From: Naegleria gruberi
Taxonomy: Eukaryota
Direction: 5' to 3' (one strand)
Length of the DNA: 64,000 nt
NCBI GenBank assembly: GCA_000004985.1
Contig: GG738888.1
A program made the position numbers and the translations under genes. The notes under the pieces were generated by a model, which made no database searches, was not told the DNA's origin, and saw only the letters and a list, made by a program, of their open reading frames with translations. Numbering within the stretch: the stretch's first letter is position 1; each line of letters opens with the position of its first letter. This document shows positions 302-62,044 of the stretch, in pieces.

Positions 302-913
302 ATGATTTCTAACAAGGTACTCACATCAACGCCTCTGATTCTGGATACAGACAGAAAACCAACAAGGCGTAATGTTTCCTTTGCTGAGGAAGCTATTGCT
401 ACCACTACAACAACTACACCTTCGAATGGTGTTGCATCAGCTACTATAACATCTACATCAACAATTATGAAACCAAAACCTAAAAAGAAGACTAAAAAGG
501 AGGAATTATCATCCATGTCACACAGTTCATCAGTTTCTAGCGTAGATACCATGTCTGTGTTAACATTGTTGAGAGAAGCCTCTGGAGTCGAGAATAGAAT
601 TAGAAAGAACCATCGTATTCTTGAGAGGACGTCTACCTTTGGTAGTTTTTCACAAATGGAATTTGTTTGGACCTTTTTAACTGTACTGGGGATTATTGGT
701 GGAATTATTGGTTTTTATATTGATATTGTTGTGGAATATATTGTTATTGGAAGAGATACAATTTTGGCTGGAATGGTTGAATCAACTCCTGGACTTCAAA
801 TGTTTGTCTGGGTACTTTTCAATTTGGCATTTGTTGTTTTGGCATTATTATTAACACTTTGGGTTGCTCCTATTGCTGAAGGAAGTGGTATTCCTCCAGT
901 TAAAGCTATTTTG
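302..913 (+). CDS. CLC-type chloride channel/transporter, exon 1
   Basis: ATG at 302. The ORF ends in the CLC motif GSGIPPVKAIL, immediately followed by a GTATGT donor at 914. Hydrophobic TM segments are present. Confidence 0.8.
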
Positions 914-1048
914 GTATGTTTTTGTGTTATAGTAAGATTAGTTTTCTTACCTTTTCTAATATGACTATATTTTATCATTTTCAAAATTGGAATATTTCAC
1001 AAAATAATATTAAAATGCATAATCACATGATAATTGGAATCTAATTAG

Positions 1049-3268
1049 ACTGGTGTTGACAGTTTGAAAGAACCTTTGAGTTTGAAAACTTTAATTGTCA
1101 AGGTTCTTGGTGTACCTTGTGTTGTGGGAGCGGGAATGTTTGTGGGTAAAGTTGGTGGCATGATTCACATTGGTGCTGCCCTTGCTGACAATCTTATGAA
1201 ATTGAAACCTTTCCGTCCTTTGAGAAATAACAAGACACTCAGAGTTCAATTGATTGGTTGTGGATGTGCTTTGGGAGTTGGTGCAGTTTTTGGTGCACCT
1301 GCAGGTGGTGTTCTTTTTGCTCTCGAAGCTGTCGGTACATATTACAGTTTGAGAAACTATTTGAAGAACTTTTATGTTGCCTTGTTGGCTGCTTTTGTTT
1401 CTCGTCTCTTGCACAGTTTGCATGATCAGTCGATTTTACTTGTACCAGTCTATCATGTCACTCTCGATGTTCCTTCATTCACAATCATTGACTTTGTCAC
1501 TCTTGGTTTCCTTGGTGTTGTTATGGGTCTTTTGGGTGTCTTGTTTGCTTTCCTCAATGAAAAATTATTGTGGCTCAGAAATAAGGTCGGTAGAAGATTC
1601 TTCCTCTTCCTTAGAAGAAAGCACTTTAAGATTGATGATCCAAAAAGCAAATTTAGATTCCTCAAGTATCCACTCACATTTGTACAAACTCAATTTTTGT
1701 GGACTGTTCTCATTTGTGTAATTACTTCAATTCTTTGTTTCCCAACAGTGATTGGTAATTTCATGTCACTCTCTCCCAATGCTCTCATTGAAGATTTAAT
1801 GCTTAACAAGCCACTTTTGAAGGAATATGGCGCTAAGGGAGATTGGATTCCTGCTCAACTTTCTGAATACATTTCCGAAACATTCCATAGTAATGGAATG
1901 CCATCAGAATATTACACTGCAGTATTCTCAAGTCTTGGTTTGTTCATTTTGGTACGTGTCATTATTACTCCACTTTCTGTTTCCTTGCCAATTCCAAGTT
2001 GTATCTACGTTACCTTGCTCATTATGGGTGCTGGTTTTGGTAGATTCTGGGGAGAACTCTGGGCTTATATCTTACCTGATGGTTGGTCCATGCTTTTTGG
2101 TAATGAGAGAGCTTACTCTTTAATTAGACCAGGAGCTTATGCTATTGTTGGTGGTCTAGCTCTTTCAGCTAGTGCTACTCAAGCCTTTAGTACAGTTTTA
2201 ATCTTTTTGGAAATTGCTGGTATGGGTATTTATTGGCCTGCCATGTTGGCATCCATGATTGCTGTCAAAATTTCAAGACTTTTATATTATTCTGCCTATG
2301 ATGCTCAAATCAAGTTGCGTGGTTGGCCTGCTCTCCTTGAAACCAAGACTGACTCTGAAGATATCAAAGTTAGAGACATTATGGTCTATGTGGATGAACT
2401 TTCAGTGGTTGAGGAAACTGTTACTTTCAATGAGTTGCAAAGCATCTTTGAAAGTACAAAGATTATTCCAAAGACTTTCCCAGTTGTCAATTCAAAGAAG
2501 GACTTGGTTTTGGTCGGTGTAGTCAGTGTTAAACAATTACAAACCCTTTATCTAACTCTTAAAGACTCTGTTGGCAAAGTTCAATCAGAATATGAAAGAG
2601 AACAAGCTGAATTAAGAGCTAAAGTACCAATTACAACAACCAATTTGAATGCAAGAAAGGGTATTGAAAGAGTTAATATTGTCACTGAACCTAGACCAGA
2701 ACAAAATAATCTCTTATTGGATTTTGATGATTTCTTTATTGGAAATGATTGGATTGCTGAAGGTGACAAGATTGAAAAGGAAGAGGAAGAAAGTGACGAT
2801 GACGATGATTTCATTTCCAACTTGATTAACAATCCATTCTCTGTACTTCCGGGTGCTATTAACTTGAATAACATTCTTGGAGGTGGATCCTCATCTGATA
2901 ATAATACCACCAATAACCAAACAGCAACATCCACAAGCAATGTTTCTCCAGCAGTTACCACTACTACTCCACCTATTGTTGCCTCAAATGAAATTGAACT
3001 CGAGGAAAGTATCAAGTTGGAAGAACCAAAAGAAGAGACCATTGTAGACAAGAAGAAGAATGAGTTAATCAGACTTGACTATGATACTTGTCAAATTGCC
3101 ATTGCTGATGATACACCAGCAGTTCTTGCTCACTTGTTGTTCTCTCAATTGAGATTGGATGATGTTTTCGTTCTATGGATGGGTCGTCTCATTGGTCAAC
3201 TTCACAGAGAAGTTTTGATTAAGAAGATTTCAGACAGAAAGGTCTTGTTAGAACAAAAAATTGTTTAA
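1049..3268 (+). CDS. CLC-type chloride channel/transporter, exon 2 (135-bp intron 914..1048, phase 0)
   Basis: The TAG acceptor ends at 1048. The spliced product reads ...GSGIPPVKAIL|TGVDSLKEPLSLKTLIVKVLGVPCVVGAGMFVGKVGG, matching CLC consensus GSGIPE.K..L.G......L.KT...K......G...GKEGP. The next motif is GVLFALE. The C-terminal region is long and consistent with CBS domains. Both ORFs are in the same frame and the intron length is a multiple of 3. Confidence 0.8.
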   Translation, partial: TGVDSLKEPLSLKTLIVKVLGVPCVVGAGMFVGKVGGMIHIGAALADNLMKLKPFRPLRNNKTLRVQLIGCGCALGVGAVFGAPAGGVLFALEAVGTYYSLRNYLKNFYVALLAAFVSRLLHSLHDQSILLVPVYHVTLDVPSFTIIDFVTLGFLGVVMGLLGVLFAFLNEKLLWLRNKVGRRFFLFLRRKHFKIDDPKSKFRFLKYPLTFVQTQFLWTVLICVITSILCFPTVIGNFMSLSPNALIEDLMLNKPLLKEYGAKGDWIPAQLSEYISETFHSNGMPSEYYTAVFSSLGLFILVRVIITPLSVSLPIPSCIYVTLLIMGAGFGRFWGELWAYILPDGWSMLFGNERAYSLIRPGAYAIVGGLALSASATQAFSTVLIFLEIAGMGIYWPAMLASMIAVKISRLLYYSAYDAQIKLRGWPALLETKTDSEDIKVRDIMVYVDELSVVEETVTFNELQSIFESTKIIPKTFPVVNSKKDLVLVGVVSVKQLQTLYLTLKDSVGKVQSEYEREQAELRAKVPITTTNLNARKGIERVNIVTEPRPEQNNLLLDFDDFFIGNDWIAEGDKIEKEEEESDDDDDFISNLINNPFSVLPGAINLNNILGGGSSSDNNTTNNQTATSTSNVSPAVTTTTPPIVASNEIELEESIKLEEPKEETIVDKKKNELIRLDYDTCQIAIADDTPAVLAHLLFSQLRLDDVFVLWMGRLIGQLHREVLIKKISDRKVLLEQKIV

Positions 3269-3421
3269 AAAATAAATTTTTCAATTTTTAAATCAACAAG
3301 CCATTGGAAATATTATACAAATTCAACTATTTATCAGTAACTATTTAAAAATTTCTTAATTATGAAAAAAATTTTAAAAATTAATAATTAAAATAAATTT
3401 AAATTTGATGAATTAAAAAAA

Positions 3422-4183
3422 ATGACTTTTTCTCACTTCATCTCCACCTTTGCGTTGTCCTTCATCTCACCCTACATTGTCTATTTTTCCAAACAATCAT
3501 CATCAAAAGGTGAAAAGGAAAATTCATCGATCGGAACGGAAAGAAGATTTAGTAATGTCGTGTTGGGAATTATGGCTTTTGGCTTGACCATGTTCTGTAA
3601 AATGTTTTTGATTGCCATTGTTATTAGAGGAAATGAAAATCAACAATTACAAAGTGGTGCCATTAATTTTGATGATAACAAACAAATTGCAACATTAGGC
3701 TTTGGCTTCTTTATTACAGAAATTTTAAAAACCTTGATAGGATCATTGGATTTAATCGGAATGTTCTTTATTCTTTCTTCTAAATGGTTATTAGGTGACC
3801 AAACTTCTCAATTATATGGATGTGCTATTGGATGGACTATGGGTGATAATTTATTCAACAGATTACTTCCATTGTGGTTCAGTACTCGTGGATTACAATT
3901 TGAACTTAAATCTCTTCAAATGGGTGTTTATAGTAATATTGTAATGCTTGAATGGATTGCTGTGGCAACATTTGTCTTTCTCTATTCAAAGAAAAAGTTT
4001 GAACAAAAGAACTATGTCAGAACCATGTTAATTATTCTCACAGTTTTCCCATTCGTTTTTGAAATTGTCAAGGTTCTTATTGGAGTGCAATGTGTTTGGT
4101 GTTTGATGGGAATTAAGGCATGTTTCTATGGAGTTTTCTGTTTATTAGCAAACTCTACCTTGTCTCAATACGAAAAGGAGTAA
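3422..4183 (+). CDS. TMEM147: TMEM147-like multi-pass ER membrane protein
   Basis: The N-terminus MTFSHFISTFALSFISPYIVYF and the internal stretch IGWTMGDNLFNRLLPLWFSTRGLQFELKSLQMGVYSNI closely parallel TMEM147 ([21 protein letters not shown] ... [38 protein letters not shown]). The length is about 250 aa with multiple TM helices. Confidence 0.6.
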   Translation: MTFSHFISTFALSFISPYIVYFSKQSSSKGEKENSSIGTERRFSNVVLGIMAFGLTMFCKMFLIAIVIRGNENQQLQSGAINFDDNKQIATLGFGFFITEILKTLIGSLDLIGMFFILSSKWLLGDQTSQLYGCAIGWTMGDNLFNRLLPLWFSTRGLQFELKSLQMGVYSNIVMLEWIAVATFVFLYSKKKFEQKNYVRTMLIILTVFPFVFEIVKVLIGVQCVWCLMGIKACFYGVFCLLANSTLSQYEKE

Positions 4184-4668: not shown

Positions 4669-5425
4669 TTGATGAATCAAACATTATCAACTTCAACATC
4701 AAGAAACATGTATTCGAATGAGAAGATAAATTGTTCGAATTGTTGCAGTGAATTATGTCGGAAGAATCGAATAGAAAGTCATAATTCAATGGTGCCCTGT
4801 ACGATTGGAGAGTTTAGATGCATGTATGGGACTGATAGTTTAGTTGAATTATTTAGTAGAATTGCTAATAATATAGTACAAGGACAGAGTAAGACTAATC
4901 TAGACGAAAGTGAGGCTAAACAACTTGAAGTTGATCAAATTGTGATGAAGGTTATGAAAATCGTTGCAGAGCCTTCATCAAGTGCTCTTGGAATAGTTTT
5001 CAGCTCACGACTTGAACATGCACTTCATAAACTTCATCTCACACTTATTGGATTCGGAACTAATGATACAACAGCTTTAGGATTCGACAATAATTCATGG
5101 TCAGATTTCAAGAGTGGCAAGGAAATATCCACCTTCATCAAGGATGCATCCAAAAGTCAACCACAATCTTTCATTACCGAGGATTTCATCGAGAAGGAAA
5201 CAACACTTGTGGATTTGGGACATAAAATCTACTCAACAGTTGGAATTAATTCAAATATCGAAATGGTTGCATTGGGATATGATTTCAGTTATTTTATCTA
5301 TGCATGTGGATGTATTGGATTGGCAGGAACGTGGTCAGAGAGTTTTGCTCGACTCTTCAAGTATCAATGGTCGAGAGAGTTGTCCTCTGTGCATCCGTCC
5401 ATGTTTTGCACTGCAATGATAAGTA
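4669..5425 (+). CDS. RCC1-repeat protein, exon 1 (N-terminal region of unknown function)
   Basis: The ORF ends ...MISS. A donor GTAGGT lies at 5426, with an alternative GTAGTA at 5423 in the same phase 1. A pyrimidine tract plus AG acceptor ends at 5507. The frame continues into the 5492 ORF. Confidence 0.5.
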
Positions 5426-5507
5426 GTAGGTTTTAATGTTGTGACATGTTGGGATTAATTTGGAATTTTTACAAAAATGGAAATTTGACACTTGTTGACT
5501 TTTTTAG

Positions 5508-6655
5508 AGGATAGAAAAACATTGTTTTCATTTGGATATAATTCTATGGGACAAGCTTCTGGGAAACTATCAGATGCTTATTTATTTCCAAAAGCTGTTG
5601 ATCCACAATTACACAATCATGAAACTATTCGATTTGTTTCGGTTGGATTTGAAGCAATTTATCTAGTGACTGAGGAAAACAACATGTATGTCTCTGGAGG
5701 TAATCACAATCACGAGCTGGGTATTGAGTGGATTAGGAAGAGTAAAATCAATGATTCCAATAGAATTGTGTTGAATTATGAAGTTGCTGAGGAAATTTTG
5801 GAAAAAGTTCAGGAACGAAAAATTATTCCAACTCTGCAATTGGTTCCAAATCTACCAAAACATGAGAAAATTATTCAGGTTGCAGCTGGTGAGAAGCATT
5901 CTTTTGTCTTAACAGAGGCAGGTAATATGTACTGCACTGGATCTAATCAAGTTGGTCAATTGGGATTGGGAAGTTCTGTTTCAGGTTTGGATAAATTCGA
6001 GAAACATCCATTTTCGAATATTGAAAAGGTAACACTCATTCATTGCTTTCAAAGTTCAACGATTTGGGTGACTGAGAGTGATACTGTCTATGTATGTGGT
6101 GAAAATTCCAATTCTGAGCTAGGAAATCTGTCATCTAATGATATTCTAATTGATGAGGAAAATCAAAATTTCATGGAACCTGTCACTCATCCAATATTAT
6201 GTGGAAAGGGAATTGTAAAAATTTATGGAATTTACAATTTATTTGCCATTACACGAAATGGTGAATATTTATGTTGGGGATCTAATGAGGAAAATGAACT
6301 TGGATTGGATGAAAATACTTTACTATCTTATAATTCTGGAGAAATTGTTAGAAACTTGGTATTTGAAAGGTATTCCAATTTGGTAAAAACTCGTGGATAT
6401 AAAATGGTATTAGCAGCAGGTTTCAATCATACCGTTCTATATTTCAAGGTAGATAATAAGAGAATTGTTTTCATGTTCCAACAATTACAGAATTTTGTGG
6501 AAAACTCACAAACTATTTCACCATTTTCAGATATTTCAATTATTCATGAAGAAGATATTCATGTTGATAATATCCTGAAAAGAAAATACAATGAAGCTAA
6601 TAACTCTCAAATAGAATCAAAAAAACAAAAAATAATCAAGGAAAAAATTAATTAA
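5508..6655 (+). CDS. RCC1-repeat protein, exon 2 (regulator of chromosome condensation-like beta-propeller repeats)
   Basis: Repeated motifs of the RCC1 type: GQLGLG, ELGIEWI, SELGNLSSN, NELGLDEN, and spaced Gly/hydrophobic blades. The acceptor TTTTTTAG|AG lies at 5501-5507. Confidence 0.6.
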
Positions 6656-8130: not shown

Positions 8131-8143
8131 TGAACTAGTTCTT

Positions 8144-9424
8144 TTAATCATTACATTCTGCAAATTCTTCATCGGATGAACTGTCGCTATCTGCACTAAT
8201 TTGATCTCTCATATCAATGTGAAAATTATCAATGTCAATACTTTCAGTTTTACCAACAGCTCTCCTAATGAAATGTCTCATATCTGAATTATTCTTAAAT
8301 CGATGGCTTAGATGCTTTCTTGGTCTTTCTTCTCTGGTGGGAGTTGTTGCTGATGGTGAATCGGTTGTATTCAACTTTATGGATTGAGGTGAAACTATAC
8401 CATCTTCACTTGGAGTTACAGCAATGGCTGGAATTTCATTGTTTCTTTTGGGCGTACTAACTTCTGTTGGTTCATCTTTTTCAACAACATTCGTATTACT
8501 GGACACTGTTGCTGGTGTAGTATTAGGAACTGCACTTGCAGCAACATTCTTCTCTGTATTGTTCACAATAGTTTGTGCTGGCATGGCATTAAGGTTTTCA
8601 CCACTTGTACCCATCAAATTGACTATCGAGTTGGTTCTTTCCTTTGATCCAACTTGAGCTTGTTCCTGTTCTTGTATCACTGTTGCAGTTGAAACAGTGT
8701 TGACTATTGAGCTGGCTCTTTCCTTTGTTGTTACTATGGATGATATCTGCACATCCCTCTTTGAATCTTGTACAATACTTGTTGTTGATGTTGATACGAT
8801 CGATTTAATCGAATCTTGCGTTGTTTGTTCCATAGTACTATTTGGTGAATCATGCAATTGATGATTTACATGATGATGAAACTCTTCATCAATTGAAGAT
8901 CTAAATGCACTATAAGACACACCAGTACCACCACCATTTGTGGAAATGGTTGCAGCAGTTCTAGGTGTTTCCAAAGTGTCAATATCACAATCAACAGTAC
9001 CACACAAGGATTCAGCACCATCCATTACACTGATAGATGGTGTTTCTTCCATGAATAATTCCTTCCTCGTGAGTGAATCCAATTGAGGAGTGACTGTGAA
9101 ATCTGTCATGTCCTTAAAGTCCAATTCTTGGAAAACTTGAACACAAAAGTGAGCCGATGCAAATACATGAATGCAAGAGAGTGTTACATTGAGCGAATTC
9201 TCTGGATGCATTGTTGTGAAGGTGATGGTTTCTGTTGATCCAGATTTGATTATTCTCTCAGTGTAAACATTGTAGATAATCTCAGAGTTAATTGCTTCTT
9301 GTTCTTTTAAACTATTGGTGGAGATGAATGTTTGCTTTTTACATACTTTAATTTGGACTGAGAGTTTTGAGGCCTTTTTGGAGGATTTGTTATCTATTCG
9401 GAGGTAGAATTTGCCTTGAGGGAT
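8144..9424 (-). CDS. Hypothetical Ser/Thr-rich protein, exon 2
   Basis: The open frame extends upstream of the annotated Met to a CATAG acceptor at 9425-9426. The C-terminal half is S/T/N-rich with an acidic end, SDSSSDEEFAECND. Confidence 0.5.
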   Translation of the reverse strand: MPQGKFYLRIDNKSSKKASKLSVQIKVCKKQTFISTNSLKEQEAINSEIIYNVYTERIIKSGSTETITFTTMHPENSLNVTLSCIHVFASAHFCVQVFQELDFKDMTDFTVTPQLDSLTRKELFMEETPSISVMDGAESLCGTVDCDIDTLETPRTAATISTNGGGTGVSYSAFRSSIDEEFHHHVNHQLHDSPNSTMEQTTQDSIKSIVSTSTTSIVQDSKRDVQISSIVTTKERASSIVNTVSTATVIQEQEQAQVGSKERTNSIVNLMGTSGENLNAMPAQTIVNNTEKNVAASAVPNTTPATVSSNTNVVEKDEPTEVSTPKRNNEIPAIAVTPSEDGIVSPQSIKLNTTDSPSATTPTREERPRKHLSHRFKNNSDMRHFIRRAVGKTESIDIDNFHIDMRDQISADSDSSSDEEFAECND

Positions 9425-9610
9425 CTATGAGATGATGATATTAAGGAAGAATGACGATGATGATAATTTGTTGTTGATGATGTCATTAAATGATGAATTG
9501 GAAATAATTGGTTGGTGGTTATTAAGAAAATTTTGAATTGTGTTCAATTTTTCATCAAGTGTTGAATATATAAAGGTAAAATGCATAGAAATATTCCAAA
9601 CGCTACTTAC

Positions 9611-9805
9611 ACTATATGAAACAGATGCAGGGTTGAGATGATCCAATGTTCCTTCCTTACACAGAATGGAAATGGAATTAGAGTTGAGGAATACACTCCC
9701 ACGTTTAATTCTCGAGTTTTTCTTCTTGATGCTTCTATCGAGGTGGGTCTCTGATGAATTGTGTGAATCCGAACCACAACAAGCCAAAAACAGTTTCCTT
9801 AACAT
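9611..9805 (-). CDS. Hypothetical Ser/Thr-rich protein, exon 1 (186-bp intron 9425..9610, phase 0/0)
   Basis: The Met at 9805 encodes MLRKLFLACCGSDS... The exon ends ...SVSYS|GTAAGTAGCG. The downstream part of ORF 9425..9805 is intron read-through that ends in the acceptor TAG. Confidence 0.45.
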
Positions 9806-10030: not shown

Positions 10031-11713
10031 TTAAGGACTCCAACCCTTACTGGATATTTGTCGTTGATTCTTGCTTGGATCATCCATTAATTCAAGCAAT
10101 TCTTCATCGATTTCCTCCTCCAAAACTTCTGGATTTGCTTCCTTGTATTCTAGATTGGTTGTTGCCATCTTGAACGGTTGTCTTCTTTGATTTCCCTTTC
10201 TCTTCTCCAACCATTTGGAGGTAATTTCAGCAGATGGAAGCATAATCTTGGCAGCAGATTTTGCCTTGGTAATTACTCGTTCTCCTGTTTTTGGAGCTGA
10301 TCCAGCTCTAGTACTTGTCACTGACTTGGATCTTCTTTCAGTGTCATTTGTAGTTTTTATCCTCTCTTGGCCAGCAACACAAGTTGGTGATTTTGATCTA
10401 AGGGTAGGAGTTTTCGAGGTTCCAAACGAGACTTGCTTAGCCGACGATGAGGCAGTATTAAAATGAGATTGTGCAGCCATAAACTCTGCTGTAGCCTTTT
10501 CAATAAACTTGGAGTATTTTTCCATCTTGTTATCACTGCTTGGATAGATTCTCTTGTACTTTCCTTGTGACATAATGTCATCTTCTTTTTTTGTGTGGAA
10601 ATCTACTAGCTCTTCTCTACTTGCCATGGATTTGAGGATTTGATCAACTTCTTCATTAGCATTTCCTGTGATTCTTTCCTTTGAAAGAGCCTTTTCAAGT
10701 TTCATCCCAACAATTCTGTCATTAGGATCAATGGCAAGCATTTTCATTGTTTCAGTTAAAAGGTTAAACTTGACATGTCTATCAAGAGGAGTATCAGTGT
10801 TGAAAGATGGTGAATGATTCACTTCCAATAACCATGGATTCATCTTTTCATCTAACAAGACATCAAAGCCCAAAATTTCAAAACAAACAAAGTCACCATG
10901 TTTTTGGGAGAGTGAAGTTTTGTACTGACTGACCAATTGAGGATAGATTGAGAGAACAGTCTTGTTGATAATATCTCCAACATCACCCCAAACTTTTTCT
11001 GGTGAGTATCCCTTTCCTTCGAGGTAATCATTTAAGAATGCAAAATTTCTCTTACTTCCCACCGAAAAGTTATTTGGATCATATTCAAATCCGTCACTCT
11101 TCTTATTGACACTGTAATTGGTCAAGTGCATACATTCTGTTTTGATATTGGTTTGGGTTGGGGCCTTATACTTTTCTGTACAAATTCTAACGAGACCATC
11201 TTGATACATGAAAATTTTAAGTGGATCAATGCACAGCACGAGGGCATATACTCTCAAATCGAACTTGTATCCATCAATCAGGAAAGGTCTATCAACATAT
11301 AACTGAACTACACAATCACCATATCTTTCAGCATCTGTTGGATCTTGAGTAATTACAATGCCTTTACCTTGACATCCGGCTGTTGGTTTGATAATATAGG
11401 TCTTTCCAATAATTTTCTTACTGGACTTGAATTTGCAATATTCTTGAGGGAGAACCCAAGATGATGGAAGAAATGAAAATTCATCAGGGAATGATTTCTT
11501 TAGTCTTTTCATATTTCTTGCGAGTGGAATCTTTCTGCAAATACCTCCCATAGCTGGAAAGTGATTGATTTTTTGAAAGGTTCTCAATTTCATGACTCTG
11601 TCTGGAGCACTGGATTGATCCATCCAAAAGACAGTGAAATCCTTTGCATTACTGGTTGGTTTTCTGATTTTCCAACCACTTGCCAAACAAGCATCTCTGA
11701 CTACATTATATTT
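10031..11713 (-). CDS. Tubulin-tyrosine ligase-like (TTLL) protein, exon 2
   Basis: TTL-domain hallmarks are present: INHFP, YIIKP..G.QGKGI, LYVDRPFLIDGYKFDLRVYALV, YQDGLVR, HLTNYSVNK, FEILGFDVLLDEKMNPWLLEVNHSPS. The frame is open upstream to a TTATTAG acceptor. Confidence 0.8.
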   Translation of the reverse strand, partial: KYNVVRDACLASGWKIRKPTSNAKDFTVFWMDQSSAPDRVMKLRTFQKINHFPAMGGICRKIPLARNMKRLKKSFPDEFSFLPSSWVLPQEYCKFKSSKKIIGKTYIIKPTAGCQGKGIVITQDPTDAERYGDCVVQLYVDRPFLIDGYKFDLRVYALVLCIDPLKIFMYQDGLVRICTEKYKAPTQTNIKTECMHLTNYSVNKKSDGFEYDPNNFSVGSKRNFAFLNDYLEGKGYSPEKVWGDVGDIINKTVLSIYPQLVSQYKTSLSQKHGDFVCFEILGFDVLLDEKMNPWLLEVNHSPSFNTDTPLDRHVKFNLLTETMKMLAIDPNDRIVGMKLEKALSKERITGNANEEVDQILKSMASREELVDFHTKKEDDIMSQGKYKRIYPSSDNKMEKYSKFIEKATAEFMAAQSHFNTASSSAKQVSFGTSKTPTLRSKSPTCVAGQERIKTTNDTERRSKSVTSTRAGSAPKTGERVITKAKSAAKIMLPSAEITSKWLEKRKGNQRRQPFKMATTNLEYKEANPEVLEEEIDEELLELMDDPSKNQRQISSKGWSP

Positions 11714-11759
11714 CTAATAAGGTCAAGTGATTAAGCATAATTTTGAAGAAAATACATAC

Positions 11760-11993
11760 ACAATTAGTTAAATCTACAATAATTGGAGGATTTGAGGAGG
11801 ATTCCCTGCCCGTTGATGGTGATTCAGAACGTGTGTCGGTCGGAGAGGCAGGTGATGATGGTGTTGATGCATTTTGCACATCTTCCTCTTCTTCCTTCTC
11901 TATTCTAGGAGTATCCTCCATCTCTGATGAAGCCGATAGTGAATTGGTATCAATATCATTTGTGTTGTATTCCATTGTATCAATGTTTTCCAT
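11760..11993 (-). CDS. TTLL protein, putative exon 1 (46-bp intron 11714..11759)
   Basis: The ORF from Met 11993 is acidic and S/P-rich and ends ...IIVDLTNC|GTATGTATTTT. Both junctions are phase 0. An alternative is that translation starts inside exon 2. Confidence 0.35.
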
Positions 11994-16920: not shown

Positions 16921-17124
16921 AACTATTTATTATTTAAATAACAATTCAATTTGTTTTTACTAGCTATTATTGGGAAGAAGAATATGAGGTGGAATATCAA
17001 CAAGTGGAAGAAGCAAGTTGCTAATCATCAACTGTTGTTGTGTGAAAAAGAAAAGGGTGTGGAATATATCATCGGAATCAATGAAAACTCTGATCATCAA
17101 TATAATTGAAACTAGCTACAAAAT

Positions 17125-46527: not shown

Positions 46528-46571
46528 CTATTGATTTTTTATAAATTAGTGAGGAAATATTCGAAACTTAC

Positions 46572-47218
46572 ATTGGAGCAAAACAAGGACCCCAATCCCA
46601 TGAAAACGAAGATTGTGTCTTTCTTATAAAGTTTCTATTCAACTCACCATGCTGAACTTGCTCATTATCACTTGTTGGAATTGGATACAGACTTTCCTTT
46701 GCTTTCCGTTTCGAATATTCAATAGCAGATTGAAATTTCACAACCAACAAATTGGATTTTTCTCTTATCAAATCAGTTACATCAATCTCAATCTTGTGAA
46801 ACATATTCTCACTACCTCCAATCCACTGTCCATTCAATTCAATATCACAAACAGTATCCAATCCATCAAATTGTAAATAAATTCGTTTCATTTCGTTCAT
46901 TTTCATGCCACTTCCCAAATCAAATTGATTTGTAAATATCCACCCCTCCAAAGCCACCCATCTCAACAGTACATCATTAAATCGATAATACGGATCAGGA
47001 ATTACACTCCGATTATAGAGAATGGTGTGGACTGTTGCTGGAATTTGAAAATTACATTCTCTGATGGTTTGATTGTTGTTTTGGAGACACCAACCTTGAG
47101 AGAGGGGTAATTCTTGGTGTTGTTGTTGTTGTATGGATGTGTGTGCAAGGCTGGTTGAGATCAAAAGAAGGAAAGAGATGAAAAAGAGTTCGTGCATTTT
47201 TTTATGAGATTTAGCCAT
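46572..47218 (-). CDS. Beta-mannosidase, exon 1 with signal peptide (44-bp intron 46528..46571)
   Basis: Signal peptide LFFISFLLLISTSLA. The exon ends ...SFSWDWGPCFAP-AT|GTAAGTTTCG (phase 2). The TAA that ends the ORF is inside the donor. The spliced read is ...CFAP-I-GIWKQV... Confidence 0.75.
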
Positions 47219-47412: not shown

Positions 47413-47485
47413 GCTGGCGTAGCTCAGTCGGTAGAGCGTTGGTCTAATAAGCCATTGGTCGCCGGTTCGATCCCGTCCGTCAGCA
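47413..47485 (+). tRNA. tRNA-Ile(AAT): tRNA-Ile (anticodon AAT)
   Basis: GCTGGCG-TA-GCTC-AGTCGGTA-GAGC-G-TTGGT-CTAATAA-GCCAT-TGGTC-GCCGG-TTCGATC-CCGTC-CGTCAGC-A. Closely parallels eukaryotic tRNA-Ile(AAU). There is one T-stem mismatch. T-runs follow at 47491-94 and 47498-47502. Confidence 0.85.
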
Positions 47486-47505: not shown

Positions 47506-48871
47506 TCAGTAATTGAAAATCTTCAAGACAGAACCATAGAAACCATAAACTTTTCTTTCCTGTGAATCAATTGCCAAACATCCACAAACTGTTCCTTCAA
47601 CATACAATATTGTCACATATTCACATGTCTTTCCATTATAAATTCTCAAATAATTGGAATCGTATTCTGCCTCAAAAATAAAATTATTCTTTGCGTCCAC
47701 ATTCACCACGTACGGCTTATCAAATTGAATTTCCACTCCACACGGAACATTCTTAATAATTTTCCCTTCTTTAGAAACAAATAAGAGTTGATTTTTTTCC
47801 TTTTCACAGACAATCAAGTGAGATTGATCTGCACTGAGGCACATGTCCGTTGGGAAGGTAATTCCAATACCAGTGATGGTTCTTGATAATTTTCCATCCT
47901 TGGAAAGTACAAGAATATCGCCATTAATAGCATCACCTACAAATATTGTACCATCTGAGTCTTGGCAAGTAACACCTTTGGCTCTTCTGATTGGATATGA
48001 CCAAATTTCTTTTCCATTCTTGGAAGAGGAGAATTTAGAAACCTTTCCCATGAATGAAATTACAAAGCTATCATCAATGCTGGAATAACACATCTTGTCT
48101 GGCATATCTCCTAGATTGGTGTGAACTTCAATCTTTCTACTTGTCAAATCCAAAGATAATAAATTTGAATTTAAAAAGTTACTAATTATCAATCTGTTGT
48201 GCTTCTTTTGTAAAACCATACCGAGAGGATTTTTAAAATCCAAATATTCATCATAATTTCCAGTTGACTCTATTTTGTCGACTTCCTCCAAAAATATCAA
48301 TGCATTTTGATCTTTGGATTCTTCAGTAGTAGCATTGGGATCATCCAAGGCAAAATCCAAATCATCCAAGTTCAAATCCAAACCGTCCAAATTCAAATCC
48401 AAACTATCCAAGTTCAAATCTAAATCTTTCAAACTCAAACAAGCAACAACCATTTCAGCCGAAATTCTGTCCTTTGGATTTCTTCTCAACATGGAATAGA
48501 CAAGGTCAATAAAATCTGTAGAGAAATTTCCTCTTTCCAAAATCTTTTTGGATATAAATTTCTTGAAATCTTCTTCATCTTGACTTGTGACAAGTGTTGC
48601 CAATGATGTGACCATATCAAAAGTAGCAAGTTGATACATGGAAACACCCAAAGCAAACATATCAGATGCAAATGAAAATGGATTGGATCCCATATTACTC
48701 ACAGAATATTCGACCAATTCTGGAGCTAAATAATTCATTGTACCCGCAATAGCAACTGATTGAGTGAAATTTTCCAAAGATTTAGCCAATCCAAAATCTC
48801 CCAAAGCAACAGTAATAATTTCATGTTCAGGATCCAAATTTCTAACCAGAATATTATGTGGTTTGATATCT
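47506..48871 (-). CDS. Ser/Thr protein kinase with C-terminal NHL-like beta-propeller, exon 2
   Basis: Starts (R)DIKPHNILV ... DFGLAK ... APE. The downstream region has repeated blades: IFVGDAINGDILVLSKDGK, LIVCEKEKNQLLFVSKEGK, YVVNVDAKNNFIFEAE. Confidence 0.75.
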
Positions 48872-48919
48872 CTATAATTCAATTAAATCAAAGATTTGAA
48901 ACATTTTGAAATTACCTAC

Positions 48920-49992
48920 CTATGAATAGTTCCATCTGTTTTCTGCATCATGTCTAAAGCACTACAAACTTGTCTGGCCACTTCTTTCATCATATTTTCA
49001 TTCAATTCCAATTTTGGTTTCACAACCGATGAGTAAAGACTTCCCTTTGACATGAGCTCCATTTCAATACAAATCTTGGACATGACTCCTGGCAAAAAGA
49101 CATCCAATGTAGAAACAATGTGTTCATGAGTCAATTTGGTCATTTTCATGGCTTCTTGGAGTGCATTATTAATATCCGAAACATTCTCAATGATCATGAT
49201 CTTCAAGGCCTTTTCCTTTCCATTCTTTCTATCGACCACTTTATAGACAGCTCCAAAAGCACCAGCATCCAATCGAATAATTTCAGAATATCTCTTTTCC
49301 AAGATGGCTTCTACTGTTTCTTGAGAGAATGTTTCATTTCTAATAACTGAATTATTGGTGGCCTTATTGGAATTATTACCAGTACTACCAGGTGATGATG
49401 ATTCTCCTCCACTCATTGATTTGAAAGAAGCAATGCTATTTGACATTTCGAATGACATTGAAGGGAAATCTGAAGATGATGAATTTGATTTGTTTGGTTG
49501 ATATTTTACATTGATTGATTTGTCCTCTGGAGCTGCCGTCTTGGAAAATAACATGAAATCTTCAACTCCTTCACTATCAAAGATGGATACTTCCGTTTTT
49601 AATTTTACATCAAAATACGAAAGTTTACACAAACTTTCTTCCAGATTCGAATCTTGGAATTTAGATTGAATAATCTTGAAAAGCTCTGTTTTAGATAATG
49701 TATCGGAAGGATTTAATCTAATATATTGACATTCTTGTGAATTATTTGATAAATTTTGTAATTTTACCAAAACTCTTATAGGATCCGAGTTGGTTGTTGG
49801 GGATATAGTTGCTGTTTTAGTATTTGGTGATGGTGATGATTCTAAAGAAATTGTATTCTTATCTTCCTTTGATCCACCTCTCAACTTTTTCAAGAAGGAT
49901 GACATTTTTTTTGATGTTGTTGAACTTTTTGAAACAGTTTTGTTACATTTATTCACTGATGCAACGAAAGGGCTCAGATCGTTATTATACAA
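48920..49992 (-). CDS. Ser/Thr protein kinase, exon 1 (48-bp intron 48872..48919)
   Basis: GAFGAVYKVVDRKNGKEKALK (Gly loop and VAIK Lys) ... LTHEHIVSTLDVF. The exon ends ...DGTIH-AG|GTAGGTAATT. The acceptor TTATAG restores H-R-D-I-K-P-H-N across the junction. Confidence 0.75.
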
Positions 49993-52933: not shown

Positions 52934-54000
52934 ATGGAGGGAAAACAACGTTCGTTGCTGCTGGTTGGAGAGAATTGTAAGGAGGTTGTTGATGATGATG
53001 ATAAAAGAGATTCCATTGTTGTTATTAGAGGAGGAGAGGAGAATGGAAAAATAATGGGAGATGATTTGAAAGGTGTTGAAATAATGGACGCTGAAAAAAA
53101 GGATTTGGCTGCATCTGAAATAATACCCTCATCATTGGCCACAAATAACAGTATTGCTGGTGATTCATTGTCGATGATGAAGAAGGAATTGAATAGTAAT
53201 GAGGGAAATACTCAACAACAACAACAACAACTACACAAGACAATAATATTAGGAGATGATGAGGATGATTCCTCTAAAGAAGATGAGTCAGAAAATTCGA
53301 GTTTGAGAAAGTCAGATAGCTTTACACTATCCACTGGAGAAGATTTAAACACATATCCTTCTAGGTTTTCATTTGAATATCTATTAATCAAGGGAATTTT
53401 ACATCCAAAGATGGTTTCAATAACCTTATTCATTCAATATCATACGATTTTATTCTATTCATTCTATTATCAAGATTTCTACTCTACCGTAGTGCTTGCG
53501 ATTTCTTTTATTGTTGGATTTCTGGTGAATACTCGTTTTGCACTCAACTCGATATGGGCAGCTGTCAAAGTTGGATCCGATAAAGCAGGAAATGCTGAAG
53601 ATGATAAGGGAAGAATGATTTGTAATTTAATATTATTTTCTCTACGATTTTACTATTTAAGATCAATGAGAATGATGCTCATGCCAATTTATTTCATGAT
53701 TATTACGAGTAACAATAATCTTAAACGAGAGGATATGATTTGGACTCTATTTCCAACCTATTATATTTCAATGCATTTCATAGGAAATCTTGGGTATAGA
53801 TTTCTTCTATTATTGATTGGACAGAGTACAGAAGATTTTGGATTTTTCTTTTCAGAGAATATTAGTACCATGATGTGTGTTGTAATGTTTAGTTTCTATA
53901 TTACAACCATCTCAATGCACTTGAAGAATAAGGTCACTTCACTGGAACATACAGGTAGCAAACTTCAATCAGCTCTCTTGACAAAACAAACATTTTTAAG
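52934..54000 (+). CDS. Hybrid sensor histidine kinase, exon 1 (N-terminal soluble region + multi-TM sensor region)
   Basis: An acidic, Q-rich N-terminus is followed by about six TM helices. The exon ends ...KQTFL-AG|GTAGGTCTTT (phase 2). Confidence 0.65.
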
Positions 54001-54045
54001 GTAGGTCTTTAATCATTCTAAATTACTATTTACTTTGAAATATAG

Positions 54046-55243
54046 ACATATAAGTCATGAATTCAGATCTCCATGCTTGAGCTCACTTGGAAGTGTGGAA
54101 CTTTTAAGAGAAACCAATTTGACACAACAACAAACAGAGCTTGTTGATACTATTGCTTCAGCTGATGGAATTTTACTCACTCTTATTGAGGATATTTTAC
54201 TCTTGGCTACACTTGAACATGAAAAGACTGTGGGAAAGAAAGGAGCCATTGACAAGTACATTCAAGTATTCAATCTTGGAAAATGCATGAAACTATTAGA
54301 AAATATCATTAGAAGTTATTGTACACAATTTAATGTGTCTTGTAAATTAATAATTGATGAGGTTTCAAAGAACGCTTGCGTGCGAGCTAACCAATCGAGA
54401 ATTCAACAAGTGATTAGTAACTTATTAACCAATGCAGTGAAGGCCTCCCACAAGGATGGAGTTGTAGAATTTATTTGCACCTGCGAAGGTGAGCCACGCT
54501 TGATCAATGGAATTAAGGAACAGAATTTTGTTTTCAAAGTTGTGGATCATGGTGTTGGAATTGAGAAGAGCAAGCAACAAAAGATTTTCGAGCCATTCTT
54601 TCAATTGCACAATGTCAATGAATCAACAATGCCATCATCTGGATTAGGATTGAACACTGTAATGCACAATGTACGTTCAATGGGAGGAAAGATTTCTGTC
54701 GAGTCAGACCTGGGTATTGGAAGTACATTTACAATTTCTTTACCTTTAGAATTGGTAGAAGAATCTCTAGCTAGGAATGGTTCAAAAGAGGATTTGGCCA
54801 ATTCTTCCATTAATAGACAATTACAAATTCAAGCTTCATATCTGAAATTGTTTGAGCATTCTGAAAAGGATTACAAGGTCTCCTCAAATCCTAAAGCAAG
54901 AATAATTCTGGCAGAGGATAATTCTATCAATAGAAAAGTGTTGGTAAAGTTGTTGGAAAATTTAGGATATTGTTGTGATACAGTTAGGGATGGCAAAGAA
55001 CTTGTGGAAAAGGTAGATTTTATGAAGCACAAGCTTGTCATTACAGATATGAATATGCCCAACTTGAATGGGTTGGAAGCAGCCACAATATTAAGACAGA
55101 GATACAAAGATGAGCTCAAGATTATTGTTCTGACAGCAGATGTTCTGTGTGATTTTCCAACCAATGTATTTGATGCGGTCATTATGAAACCTTGCAATAA
55201 GGCAACACTTCAGCCCTATCTAGAGAAATGGGCAAAAGAATAA
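54046..55243 (+). CDS. Hybrid sensor histidine kinase, exon 2: HisKA + HATPase_c + receiver (REC) domain (45-bp intron 54001..54045)
   Basis: The splice yields ...TFLR-HISHEFRSP (H-box). N/G boxes VISNLLTNAVKAS, VVDHGVGIE, SGLGLNTV. Receiver domain ILLAEDNSINRKVLV...ITDMNMPNLNGLE...IIVLTAD. Confidence 0.8.
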
Positions 55244-56359: not shown

Positions 56360-56728
56360 CTTATTCTCCTCAACTGTTAATATTCGCTCGCTTTTTAAAC
56401 AATTATCTATTAAAATACTAATACTACGGAATCAATGATCAAACAACACAAAGAATGGCAGCTTATGTTGTTGTGGCGTAATGAGGATTTTTTTTAAGGC
56501 TTTGATTTTTAAAAATTTACGCCTTAATTTTTGTGTAACGGTTAGGAAATTGAACTTTTGAACATACCTACACCTTATTCTTCTCGGAATTGAGAACGTC
56601 TTCATCTGTCCCACTCTTTTCAAATAAATATATAATGTTATGAATATCTTGGGTCTGTTTCAATTCTGTTGATCTTATTGGCTTGTTATTTCCTAATGAT
56701 ACTAGTTGGTACCAACATATAATATTGT

Positions 56729-59390: not shown

Positions 59391-60619
59391 TTATAAGAGA
59401 GTAGCTCTTTCACCAGAGACACGTTTGTAATTCCTTACAAACATGACAACGGTCACAATGAGTAAGGCAACTGCAAAGATTAAGAAGAGAGCACATAGGG
59501 AAATAATGATACCAAAGAAGGCCTTACCAACTTTCATATCTTCTGAAATCACACAAGTATTCTTTGAGGCATTGTAATCATAACCATCATCACAAGCGAA
59601 TGGACAATTGTTGGTAGTGGATGAGTTGGTGTAGACTGCATTTTCAGCTGGCTTATTAGTACAAGCAGTACAGGAAAGTTGACCTGGGTTATATTCACCA
59701 ATGGCACATGGAATGCAGTTCTTCTTTTCAGCAGAGAAACCAAATCCAGGATTACAGCTGGTCAAGATACAGGTTGGAACATATTTACCAGTGTTGGTAT
59801 TACAATTTTGAACACCTTGTCCATTGGTCAAGTTACATGCCTTGGTTTGCCATTTAGCACAAATATCAAAGAATTTCATAGTATCAATCCAAACCTTTGA
59901 TCTATCAACAGCACTTTCCTTAGTATAACTCAATCTGAAATCAGAACCTTCAAAGAAGAATTCCAAAGGAGTTAATTCATTTTGATTCCAAGCATAAGCT
60001 TCACGAATGGCAAATCTGAATCTTGATTGAACTGGAAGTGGCTTTGGAGTAACATCTGAATTAATGTTCAAACTCTTAATATCAGCAAGTAAATCTTCAA
60101 ATTCATAAACTTGACCACCTGGAACTTGTGCAATTTGTTGTGGTTGACCACTCAAACCACCAACGACAACAGTCTTTACCTTTTGAGATTCTTGGAGGTG
60201 ACGAGTGAACAATGCACAAGTGGAGGCACATCTACCATTTGAGAGGAGAATGAAATCATCTGGTGAGTACTTTAACAAATCTTCACCAGTGAAATAGTAA
60301 TTATCAAATGATGGTTGACAATAATTTTCCTTAAGAATGGATGAATAGAATGCTGGTTTTCCATCAGTACCTCTAATGTAACTCTTTTGATTGGTATACC
60401 AAGTTTCATCTTTGAAATTCTTTCCATCAATAGTCTTCCAAGTAGCAAAATTCCAAATAGAATCAGCATCTGGTGACAATTTGGTTCCAGCAGTTGCTAA
60501 TTGTCTTCCCAATTCTGTGGCAATCATGTCAGTTCTAGCAAAGAGAGTTTCAAAATTGCTAGAGAAGGCATTAGAGTGCAAATATTTAATGAGGGCATAA
60601 CCCAAACATTCTTCACCAC
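59391..60619 (-). CDS. Peptidase S41 (tail-specific/C-terminal processing protease)-like protein, exon 3: Cys-rich region + C-terminal TM anchor
   Basis: The frame is open upstream to an AACAAATAG acceptor. It continues GG-GEECLGYALIKYL. A Cys-rich EGF/TNFR-like stretch, C.P..C..GY, and the TM helix FGIIISLCALFLIFAVALLIVTVVMF follow. Confidence 0.55.
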
Positions 60620-60698
60620 CTATTTGTTATTAAATTAATCAGAATAGTATTAGTATTTGGAAATTATTTGAATAATAATGTTAAAATAGAATACATAC

Positions 60699-61727
60699 CA
60701 CCATTGTTGGTAACATCGACAATAATACGTGGAATCTTATTGAGCTTGGCAAGATACATGGCTGTTTGGAAATCTTTAGCAAATTGAACTTCATCTTTTG
60801 GAACAAAAGATTCAACAGTAATAACACCAACCTTTCCATCAATTTGGAAATAATTAACTTGATCACCAGTGATGAGATTGACAATATTGTGAGTATCCTT
60901 GGTTGCTTTAGACAAAAGTGGAAGAGTTCTCTTTTCTTGGAGAGGATCGACCTTCTTTTCCTCATTGGTCAATCTAGCTCTATTAGCAGTAGCAAGACAT
61001 GAGGCATAGAAATCGTTTGGTGATTGATAATTAATCAATGAAGAACCAACCCAAGGAATATTAACAGTACTAGTAGTTCCATCAGTAGCCAAAATTTCAT
61101 AGGAAACAATTTCACCATTAACTGGGAATCCGAGTCTATTCAAAGATCTAGTCATGAACAAGTTAGAGATGGCAACATTGAAACGAGCTCCTTCATCCTT
61201 GTAACCACCAGCATTAGCATTAGCCCAATCGACAATATGTCTAATAGCAACCTTTCCATGAATTTTGGTAATTTCACCTCCAACAAACTTTTTCAAATCA
61301 TATCCCAAACCAGTATAATAATCAATAATTCCAGAAGCATTATTGAGAGAGGCAATTCCAATCTTTTGAACATTATCAGCATCATCGAGATAGGAAATGA
61401 TAGAGAATGGTTGTCTCAATACTAAATTTCCATAACATTGAGGAGCAAAATATAAAGTATGTCCATCATTGAGTTGTCTGAAGAGAGCAACAATTGATTG
61501 ATGGAAATCAAAATCATATTCAAAGGTTTCTTGGGAAATCTTTTCCAATTCAGCCAAAAGATCAACTCTAATATTGAAACGTGGATCGGTAGCATTCTTT
61601 ACATATTCACGAAAGACGTACATTGGAATTGTCTTTTGAATACTAGAAAGTGTTTGTTTAGAAATTTCGGAATCCAATGTAATGTTATAAACACATGATT
61701 TAATCGAGTCGTATGAAATAGGAGTAT
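60699..61727 (-). CDS. Peptidase S41-like protein, exon 2 (79-bp intron 60620..60698)
   Basis: The exon ends IIVDVTNNGG-G|GTATGTATTC (phase 1). Joined with exon 3 this gives VDVTNNGGGG, compared with S41 consensus (L)IIDLRNNGGG. The frame is open upstream to a TGAATAG acceptor at 61728-61729. Confidence 0.55.
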
Positions 61728-61926
61728 CTATTCAATCAATAGTATTATTAATGATGATGATCCATGTTTAAATTCCAAGTTGATGATGATGAAATTTACA
61801 ATATAAAATAATTCCAACGTCATCATGATGACGATTTAATAAAAACAATTTTAAATTCCAAATTTAATTAATAGGTAATGATGAGTTATCCACTTTGAAT
61901 TTTCATCAATTTTTAAGAATACCTAC

Positions 61927-62044
61927 TTGGTGTAAATTGACAAACATTTTGAGCCTCCGAGAAACCACACAGCACAAGGCAGCTAGTGGCAACGACCACA
62001 AGCATCAACGTGGACAGCAAGTGAGAGGACATTCTAGAGTTCAT
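61927..62044 (-). CDS. Peptidase S41-like protein, exon 1 = signal peptide (199-bp intron 61728..61926); not present in ORF track
   Basis: ATG at 62044 encodes MNSRMSSHLLSTLMLVVVATSCLVLCGFSEAQNVCQFTP. The exon ends CCA-A|GTAGGTATTC (phase 1). Its phase matches the exon 2 acceptor. Confidence 0.45.

What the first reader, a model, noticed from the sequence alone, without database searches (positions are those of the whole stretch)
302..62044. Fragmented ORFs are single genes split by very short spliceosomal introns (44-48 bp class plus 79-199 bp class)
I verified junctions by motif continuity in the CLC channel (914..1048), RCC1 protein (about 5426..5507), S/T-rich protein (9425..9610), TTLL (11714..11759), beta-mannosidase (46528..46571), kinase (48872..48919), histidine kinase (54001..54045) and S41 peptidase (60620..60698 and 61728..61926). 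The donors are GTAGGT, GTATGT or GTAAGT and the acceptors are YAG. Several introns place an in-frame stop (TAG or TAA) inside the donor or acceptor itself. The ORF track therefore ends exactly at the splice site. Four introns of only 44-48 bp are near the lower limit for spliceosomal introns. They give a useful diagnostic donor consensus for re-annotating this genome.
Basis: seen in the sequence. Interest (0 to 1): 0.5.

Follow-up and report, generated by a model that had tools for sequence, protein, structure and literature searches.

The report
Ordinary short introns in Naegleria genes
The broken reading frames are normal genes of the amoeba Naegleria gruberi interrupted by nine ordinary short GT-AG introns; seven are already in the public annotation, and the other two improve it slightly.

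Summary
The window is a Naegleria gruberi NEG-M nuclear scaffold. All nine claimed introns exist at the stated coordinates. Each starts GTA[A/G/T]GT, ends TAG, has low GC (0.235 against 0.368 in flanking exons) and restores a single reading frame.

Seven junctions (CLC, RCC1, TTLL, beta-mannosidase, kinase, S41 x2) give proteins identical, residue for residue, to the GenBank models from the 2010 genome project.

The other two are not in the public protein set, but homology supports them:
- **S/T-rich gene.** The intron adds a 5' exon that is conserved in N. lovaniensis, which has a GTAAGT..CAG intron at the same codon and phase.
- **Histidine kinase.** The junction restores the H-box and aligns without gaps to seven relatives.

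The RCC1 intron has a counterpart at the same position and phase (51 nt) in a syntenic contig of a related organism.

Three side claims fall short:
- **Lower limit.** Introns of 44-48 nt are not near the lower limit; about 25 nt is known in ciliates and 35 nt in Giardia.
- **Two length classes.** Nine introns cannot show this.
- **Stops inside splice sites.** These follow trivially from the consensus sequences.

No RNA data were available to me. Interest is low.

The parts
302..3268 (+). CLC chloride-channel gene: exons 302..913 and 1049..3268, intron 914..1048 (135 nt, phase 0, GTATGT..TAG)
   Evidence: The spliced product (943 aa) is identical to GenBank EFC41025.1 / XP_002673769.1. Pfam Voltage_CLC matches as one stretch, aa 181-617, across the junction at aa 207 of the open-frame product.
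4708..6655 (+). RCC1-repeat gene: exons 4708..5425 and 5508..6655, intron 5426..5507 (82 nt, phase 1, GTAGGT..TAG)
   Evidence: The spliced product (621 aa) is identical to EFC41027.1. Syntenic contig L001 of a related organism has a 51-nt GTATGT..CAG intron at the same codon and phase. Its spliced product is colinear with this one: 41% identity, gap-free over aa 168-343. The more distant homolog P0230 is also gap-free across the junction.
8144..9805 (-). S/T-rich protein gene: exon 1 9805..9611, intron 9610..9425 (186 nt, phase 0, GTAAGT..TAG), exon 2 9424..8144; 491 aa
   Evidence: The public model P0150 is only the 355-aa ORF starting at the internal ATG 9211. N. lovaniensis P0151 aligns to both exon 1 (aa 11-66) and exon 2. 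Its DNA has GTAAGTAG...TTAACACAG (111 nt, phase 0) at the same position. In N. gruberi the upstream frame stays open through the intron and stops only at the acceptor TAG.
10031..11993 (-). TTLL (tubulin polyglutamylase-like) gene: exon 1 11993..11760, intron 11759..11714 (46 nt, phase 0, GTATGT..TAG), exon 2 11713..10031
   Evidence: The spliced product (638 aa) is identical to EFC41096.1. The junction 'IIVDLTNC|KYNVVRDA' aligns gap-free with high posterior to TTLL6 PDB chains (8t42_N, 6vzt_A), 'LVINLSNCRYDSVRRA'.
44376..47218 (-). Beta-mannosidase (GH2) gene: exon 1 47218 (GenBank start 47197)..46572, intron 46571..46528 (44 nt, phase 2, GTAAGT..TAG), exon 2 46527..44376
   Evidence: GenBank protein P0001 (925 aa) is an exact substring of the spliced product. 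Pfam Glyco_hydro_2_N2 1-167/167 spans the junction. 'SFSWDWGPCFAP|IGIWK' is gap-free against five orthologs.
47506..49905 (-). Protein kinase gene: exon 1 49905..48920, intron 48919..48872 (48 nt, phase 2, GTAGGT..TAG), exon 2 48871..47506
   Evidence: The spliced product (783 aa) is identical to EFC41111.1. Pfam Pkinase matches as one stretch across the junction, which rebuilds the catalytic-loop motif H|RDIKPHN.
52934..55243 (+). Hybrid histidine kinase gene: exons 52934..54000 and 54046..55243, intron 54001..54045 (45 nt, phase 2, GTAGGT..TAG); 754 aa
   Evidence: HisKA 2-65/66 spans the junction. 'KQTFL|RHISHEFRSPCLSS' is gap-free against seven Naegleria/Willaertia histidine kinases. No identical protein was returned from the 5.8-billion-protein collection. 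The alternative 66-nt acceptor would delete the H-box.
59391..62044 (-). S41-peptidase-like membrane protein gene: exon 1 62044 (GenBank start 62032)..61927, intron 61926..61728 (199 nt, phase 1, GTAGGT..TAG), exon 2 61727..60699, intron 60698..60620 (79 nt, phase 1, GTATGT..TAG), exon 3 60619..59391
   Evidence: The product with both introns removed (787 aa) is identical to EFC41114.1. Pfam Peptidase_S41 runs as one stretch across the second junction 'VDVTNNG|GGEE' (weak, E 7.6e-5). Exon 1 encodes an N-terminal hydrophobic, signal-peptide-like segment.

Best explanation
The window is nuclear DNA of the heterolobosean amoeboflagellate Naegleria gruberi (strain NEG-M scaffold). The nine intervals are conventional U2-type GT-AG spliceosomal introns in eight protein-coding genes.

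Inferred mechanism. Each gene is transcribed through its intron. The spliceosome recognises the 5' site GTA[A/G/T]GT, a branch site about 10-30 nt upstream of the 3' end, and the 3' TAG, presumably across the intron (intron definition), given lengths of 44-199 nt. It then ligates the flanking exons to give one continuous coding sequence. Because a bacterial-style ORF track ignores splicing, each gene appears as two or three ORFs. These often end exactly at the splice site, because TAA/TAG is part of the donor and acceptor consensus.

Shown here: the sequence signals, the restored reading frames, colinearity with homologs, identity with public gene models, and conservation of intron position in relatives for two of the introns.

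Inferred only: actual removal from the RNA, the branch points, and intron-definition recognition.
For: Organism: beta-mannosidase is 100% identical to an N. gruberi protein on a 351,708-bp contig. Five further spliced products are exact matches to GenBank N. gruberi entries on the same contig.

Signals: GT..AG with GTA[AGT]GT donors and TAG acceptors in 9 of 9. Intron GC is 0.235 against 0.368 in exons. Intron lengths mod 3 are 0 for four, 1 for four and 2 for one, so length is not constrained to the reading frame.

Frame: exactly one phase joins long open frames at each site.

Domain and motif continuity: CLC, GH2-N, Pkinase (HRD), HisKA and S41; TTLL6; beta-mannosidase orthologs; histidine kinases.

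Comparative evidence: a same-position, same-phase intron of different length and sequence occurs in a syntenic relative for RCC1 (51 nt) and in N. lovaniensis for the S/T-rich gene (111 nt).

Statistics: GTAGGT is the top hexamer of 2964 for ORF-joining.

Literature: N. gruberi has 1.7 exons per gene and a mean intron length of 203 bp (PMC8296547). Its introns often share positions with other eukaryotes (PMC3488318).
Against: The GenBank models that seven junctions match are themselves predictions. Branch-site evidence is weak: a YTRAY motif lies 8-33 nt from the 3' end in 8 of 9 introns, but that is expected often in sequence this AT-rich, and the CLC intron has none. For HK, the one N. lovaniensis homolog I examined has its intron 21 nt further 3', not at the same site, so there is no positional conservation for that intron. 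The S41 exon 1 junction has no support from homology, only the identical GenBank model and a plausible signal peptide.
Confidence: 0.95

Rival explanations
1. The ORF breaks are assembly or sequencing errors (frameshifts, spurious stops) or mark pseudogenes, not introns.
For: The scaffold is a draft with gaps: N runs at 24590..25984 and 34924..34973.
Against: Every break is bounded by GTA[AGT]GT...TAG. The inserts are 44-199 nt of lower-GC sequence, not 1-2 nt indels. Removing them gives proteins colinear with homologs. Unspliced ORF calls from independent ENA/Logan assemblies read into the same intron sequence (P0123, P0125, P0129), so the inserts are genuinely in the genome.
Confidence: 0.01
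2. The introns are real, but one or more exact boundaries are wrong, through an alternative acceptor or donor or a falsely added exon.
For: In-frame alternative acceptors exist: RCC1 5573 and 5666; HK 54066; kinase 48842; S41a 60515, 60497 and 60470. The S41 exon 1 junction and the S/T-rich start codon rest on prediction only.
Against: The alternatives delete conserved residues. The HK alternative loses HISHEFR. The RCC1 alternatives would break the gap-free alignment to L001 and P0230. In each case the chosen acceptor is the first frame-compatible YAG, and for seven junctions it matches GenBank.
Confidence: 0.04
3. The intervening sequences are not U2-type spliceosomal introns but another kind of element: U12-type introns, group I/II introns, or DNA-level internal eliminated sequences.
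For: None specific. Naegleria is known to carry group I introns in its rDNA (my own background knowledge, not checked here).
Against: No donor resembles the U12 consensus (A/G)TATCCTT; all are GTA[AGT]GT. Lengths of 44-199 nt are too short for group I/II ribozymes. An Rfam scan of the whole window found only four tRNAs. The boundaries are GT..AG rather than the TA..TA of ciliate IESs.
Confidence: 0.005

Closest known systems
Annotated spliceosomal introns of Naegleria gruberi NEG-M (JGI/GenBank models ACER00000000, Fritz-Laylin et al. 2010)
   Same: Seven of the nine junctions yield proteins identical to EFC41025.1, EFC41027.1, EFC41096.1, EFC41111.1, EFC41114.1 (two introns) and the 925-aa beta-mannosidase. 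The GT-AG boundaries and low intron density fit the published 1.7 exons per gene.
   Different: The S/T-rich gene's 5' exon and 186-nt intron are missing from the public 355-aa model. No public protein matching the histidine kinase was found. The mean length of the nine introns (96 nt) is below the published genome mean of 203 bp.
Short 'minimal' intron classes of other microbial eukaryotes (ciliates about 25 nt, Giardia 35 nt; also many fungi and other protists at roughly 40-60 nt, the latter from my own background knowledge)
   Same: A tight cluster of lengths near a minimum (44, 45, 46, 48 nt), AT-rich, with a strong 5' consensus.
   Different: The introns here are roughly twice as long as the ciliate minimum, so they are not extreme. 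Whether Naegleria has a real mode at about 45 nt was not tested genome-wide.
Orthologous introns in related heteroloboseans (N. lovaniensis GCA_003324165.2; Logan assembly of SRR15442825)
   Same: Same codon and phase for the S/T-rich gene intron (GTAAGTAG donor in both species) and for the RCC1 intron (A|AG lysine codon in both).
   Different: Lengths and sequences differ (186 against 111 nt; 82 against 51 nt). Both relatives' introns are multiples of 3 without stops, so they were read through as coding sequence. The relative's RCC1 gene has an extra 58-nt intron that N. gruberi lacks. The N. lovaniensis HK homolog has its intron 21 nt away.

Membership tests
U2-type (GT-AG) spliceosomal intron | GT at the 5' end and AG at the 3' end on the coding strand | tested here: met
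   9 of 9.
U2-type (GT-AG) spliceosomal intron | Extended 5' splice-site consensus of the GTRAGT type | tested here: met
   GTAGGT x4, GTATGT x3, GTAAGT x2. These hexamers are rare in the window (43 occurrences) and enriched at ORF joins.
U2-type (GT-AG) spliceosomal intron | Removal restores one open reading frame that is colinear with homologs | tested here: met
   Frame restored at all nine. Colinearity: CLC, beta-mannosidase, kinase, HK and S41a by Pfam; TTLL by PDB TTLL6; RCC1 by L001 and P0230; S/T-rich gene by N. lovaniensis. S41b rests only on the identical GenBank model.
U2-type (GT-AG) spliceosomal intron | Branch-point motif and pyrimidine-rich tract upstream of the 3' splice site | tested here: inconclusive
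   YTRAY lies 8-33 nt from the 3' end in 8 of 9 introns, with none in CLC. This is not distinguishable from chance in AT-rich sequence, and there is no clear pyrimidine tract.
U2-type (GT-AG) spliceosomal intron | Absent from mature mRNA | not testable with these tools
   No transcript data were reachable. Public RNA-seq exists (PRJEB23822, cited in PMC6142364).
U2-type (GT-AG) spliceosomal intron | Intron length not constrained to multiples of three; composition distinct from exons | tested here: met
   Length mod 3 is 0 for four, 1 for four and 2 for one. GC is 0.235 against 0.368.
U12-type (minor) spliceosomal intron | Donor (A/G)TATCCTT and a highly conserved branch site TCCTTAAC | tested here: not met
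   No donor has TATCC.
Group I / group II self-splicing intron | Structured ribozyme core of several hundred nt, detectable by Rfam models | tested here: not met
   Lengths are 44-199 nt. Rfam at gathering threshold found only four tRNAs in the window.

The most novel reading that the evidence does not exclude
N. gruberi may have a discrete 'minimal intron' class at about 44-48 nt, marked by a GTAGGT-biased donor and an almost invariant TAG acceptor, separate from its longer introns. If so, a scan built on these signals could recover a meaningful number of missed exons and genes. Two of the eight intron-containing genes here (the S/T-rich gene's 5' exon and the histidine kinase) are missing or truncated in the public protein set. 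In relatives, 3n stop-free introns have been translated as coding sequence.
Probability: 0.25. Interest if true: 0.25.

Novelty: already known. Interest (0 to 1): 0.1.

Why it matters
It matters little beyond annotation hygiene. It shows that a bacterial-style ORF track fragments eukaryotic genes in a predictable way, and that ORF ends coincide with splice sites because TAA/TAG sit inside the donor and acceptor consensus.

Two practical points follow.
- **N. gruberi.** The public models appear to miss the first exon of one gene, and possibly a whole hybrid histidine kinase gene.
- **N. lovaniensis.** Its annotation contains at least one fused model (TTLL 3' part plus the downstream gene) with a 111-nt intron translated as protein.

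Both are routine re-annotation targets once RNA-seq is mapped.

Tried and rejected
1. The lookup of the contig encoding the N. gruberi beta-mannosidase returned nothing, so the official exon table could not be read. I used exact protein identity instead.
2. The 2010 Cell genome paper is not held. Genome statistics were taken from PMC8296547.
3. A permuted-motif control on raw counts did not discriminate. Normalising by motif frequency did.
4. PDB searches did not reach the RCC1 junction and found nothing for the S41-like protein. RCC1 was resolved with the representative-library search and a syntenic contig.
5. An extra donor-like site, GTAGGTATGT at 56571 (-), joins an upstream open frame to the 55322..56359 gene. 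That frame has no ATG, and GenBank EFC41112.1 is the unspliced 345-aa ORF, so I rejected it as a coding intron.
6. A candidate 69-nt 3' intron at 16895..16963 could not be tested. GenBank EFC41029.1 is unspliced.
7. The apparent low-GC anomaly at 24-28 kb, with ORFs overlapping in several frames, is just a 1395-nt run of N.
8. I ran no further search on further HK start-codon variants. Any such model would already have appeared at about 100% identity.
Full report
**What the window is.** GC content is about 33% throughout. The spliced beta-mannosidase product is 100% identical to a protein labelled Naegleria gruberi on a 351,708-bp contig, with N. lovaniensis and N. fowleri orthologs at 64% and 62%. 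Five more spliced products are exact, full-length matches to GenBank N. gruberi proteins on that same contig. The window is therefore a piece of the N. gruberi NEG-M nuclear assembly. That genome has been annotated since 2010 and has a published 33% GC, 1.7 exons per gene and a mean intron length of 203 bp (PMC8296547).

**Checking the observation.** All nine intervals start with GT and end with AG on the strand of the flanking ORFs. Donors are GTAGGT (4), GTATGT (3) and GTAAGT (2). All nine acceptors are TAG. Lengths are 135, 82, 186, 46, 44, 48, 45, 79 and 199 nt. At each site, exactly one intron phase joins two long open frames.

In the three phase-2 introns the upstream frame stops at G|TAA|GT or G|TAG|GT. 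In the three phase-0 introns the acceptor TAG is in the downstream frame. This is a direct consequence of the consensus sequences, not a separate phenomenon.

**Chance.** The three donor hexamers occur only 43 times on both strands of the window. A first control with permuted motif sets was uninformative on raw counts, because those motifs are several times more frequent. Normalised per occurrence, GTAGGT ranks first of 2964 hexamers. Five of its nine occurrences can serve as a frame-restoring donor between open frames of at least 60 codons, against a median of 2.7% and a 95th percentile of 10.5%. Pooled intron GC is 0.235 against 0.368 in the adjacent exons. Intron lengths are not biased to multiples of three.

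**Junction-by-junction evidence.**
- **CLC.** The 943-aa product equals EFC41025.1. Voltage_CLC matches as one stretch across the junction.
- **RCC1.** The 621-aa product equals EFC41027.1. Pfam and PDB hits do not reach the junction, so I searched the representative library and fetched a syntenic genomic contig from a related organism (L001, Logan SRR15442825). It has DUF2053 followed by RCC1, as in the window. There, a 51-nt GTATGT..CAG segment sits in the same lysine codon (A|AG) and the same phase. With it and a second 58-nt intron removed, the product aligns to the N. gruberi protein at 41% identity, with no gap from aa 168 to 343. The more distant homolog P0230 is also gap-free across the junction.
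- **TTLL.** The 638-aa product equals EFC41096.1. The junction lies inside a motif conserved in solved TTLL6 structures and aligns gap-free.
- **Beta-mannosidase.** The GenBank protein is an exact substring of the spliced product, and the junction is gap-free against five orthologs.
- **Kinase.** The 783-aa product equals EFC41111.1, and the junction rebuilds the HRD catalytic-loop motif.
- **S41-like protein.** The 787-aa product with both introns removed equals EFC41114.1. The second junction lies within a weak Peptidase_S41 match. The first junction attaches a signal-peptide-like exon and has no independent support.

**The two junctions not in the public protein set.**

*S/T-rich gene.* The only N. 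gruberi protein found is the 355-aa intron-less ORF starting at an internal methionine. The N. lovaniensis homolog aligns to both the proposed exon 1 and exon 2, with an insert exactly at the junction. Its DNA shows the insert is GTAAGTAG...TTAACACAG, 111 nt, phase 0, at the same position. This is a 3n, stop-free intron that the annotation pipeline read through. The same N. lovaniensis model also begins with the C-terminal third of the upstream TTLL gene, so it is a fused model. In N. gruberi, exon 1 can reach exon 2 only by splicing, because the frame ends at the acceptor TAG.

*Histidine kinase.* No identical or near-identical protein was returned; the best hit was 49%. Exact lookups of several variants also failed. 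After splicing, 'KQTFL|RHISHEFRSPCLSS' aligns without gaps to seven Naegleria and Willaertia histidine kinases, and HisKA spans the junction. The alternative in-frame acceptor, 21 nt downstream, would delete the phospho-acceptor H-box. The one N. lovaniensis homolog I inspected has its intron 21 nt further 3', so this intron position is not conserved there.

**Interpretation.** These are ordinary U2-type GT-AG spliceosomal introns. Nothing suggests U12-type donors, self-splicing introns (Rfam found only four tRNAs) or DNA-level elimination. The steps not shown here are actual removal from RNA and branch-site use. YTRAY motifs are present in 8 of 9 introns, but this is not significant in sequence this AT-rich.

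- Introns of 44-48 nt are short but far from the known minimum: about 25 bp in ciliates (PMC5014332) and 35 nt in Giardia (PMC1201135). Predicted introns of 9-95 bp are reported in the related Acrasis kona (PMC11589745).
- Two length classes cannot be inferred from nine values. Orthologous and neighbouring introns in relatives measure 51, 58, about 106 and 111 nt.
- The donor consensus is already embodied in the 2010 gene models for seven of the nine sites.

**Verdict.** The phenomenon is already known and expected for this organism. The only modest added value is two probable corrections to the N. gruberi annotation and one to the N. lovaniensis annotation. Interest is low.

Noticed in passing
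window 24590..25984 and 34924..34973: Assembly gaps (runs of N, 1395 and 50 nt). The low-GC bin at 24-28 kb and the overlapping ORFs 24556..26454 in several frames are artefacts of the first gap. That gap also truncates the Avl9/DENN-like ORF starting at 22753.
   Followed up: yes
window 27479..34485, minus strand: Tandem array of five paralogous ORFs of about 150 aa (27479..27937, 28816..29262, 30497..30946, 32502..32954, 34039..34485), spaced 1.3-2.0 kb apart. The first four share 66-68% aa identity and the fifth is at 40%. The first copy (27479..27937), the only one scanned, has no Pfam match. A fragment copy lies near 31399..31474. Function unknown.
   Followed up: partly
window 16895..16963 (+): Candidate 69-nt intron (GTAGGT..TAG, GC 0.22, phase 1) near the 3' end of the multi-pass membrane protein gene 15211..16920. 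It would replace the last 8 residues with a 48-residue tail. The GenBank model EFC41029.1 is the unspliced 569-aa ORF. Unresolved without RNA data.
   Followed up: partly
window 56418..56571 (-): Strong donor-like sequence GTAGGTATGT in the spacer between the 864-aa gene and the 345-aa gene. The open frame upstream of it has no ATG, so it is probably not a coding intron. A UTR intron is not excluded.
   Followed up: partly
window 52934..55243 (+): The hybrid histidine kinase gene (HisKA, HATPase_c, Response_reg; 754 aa) has no identical counterpart in the 5.8-billion-protein collection, unlike its neighbours. It may be missing from the public N. gruberi protein set.
   Followed up: partly
L002 (N. 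lovaniensis PYSW02000016.1) 1501..3881; intron-like segment about 2871..2981: The GenBank model C9374_002586 (715 aa) fuses the C-terminal third of the TTLL ortholog to the downstream S/T-rich gene. It also translates a 111-nt GTAAGT..CAG intron as 37 residues.
   Followed up: yes
L001 (Logan SRR15442825 contig) 3815..3865 and 4044..4101: The RCC1 ortholog in a related organism has a 51-nt, stop-free, 3n intron at the N. gruberi position. It also has an extra 58-nt GTAAGT..CAG intron that N. gruberi lacks, so introns are gained or lost between close relatives.
   Followed up: yes
L003 (N. lovaniensis PYSW02000086.1) about 1583..1720: A histidine kinase homolog has its intron after ...ISHEFR, 21 nt 3' of the N. 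gruberi site. A micro-exon of about 18 nt and a second GTAAGT intron follow. This could be intron sliding or independent gain among paralogs.
   Followed up: no
window 22451..22531 (+), 38527..38607 (-), 42931..43001 (+), 47413..47485 (+): Four tRNA genes (Ser-GCT, Leu-CAA, Asp-GTC, Ile-AAT) scattered between protein-coding genes.
   Followed up: no
proteins P0123, P0125, P0129 (ENA/Logan): Prokaryote-style ORF calls on other N. gruberi-like assemblies read into or start inside the same introns (for example ...KAILVCFCVIVRLVFLPFLI and MNYRDIKPHN...). Public metagenome-derived protein sets therefore contain these intron-encoded tails.
   Followed up: yes
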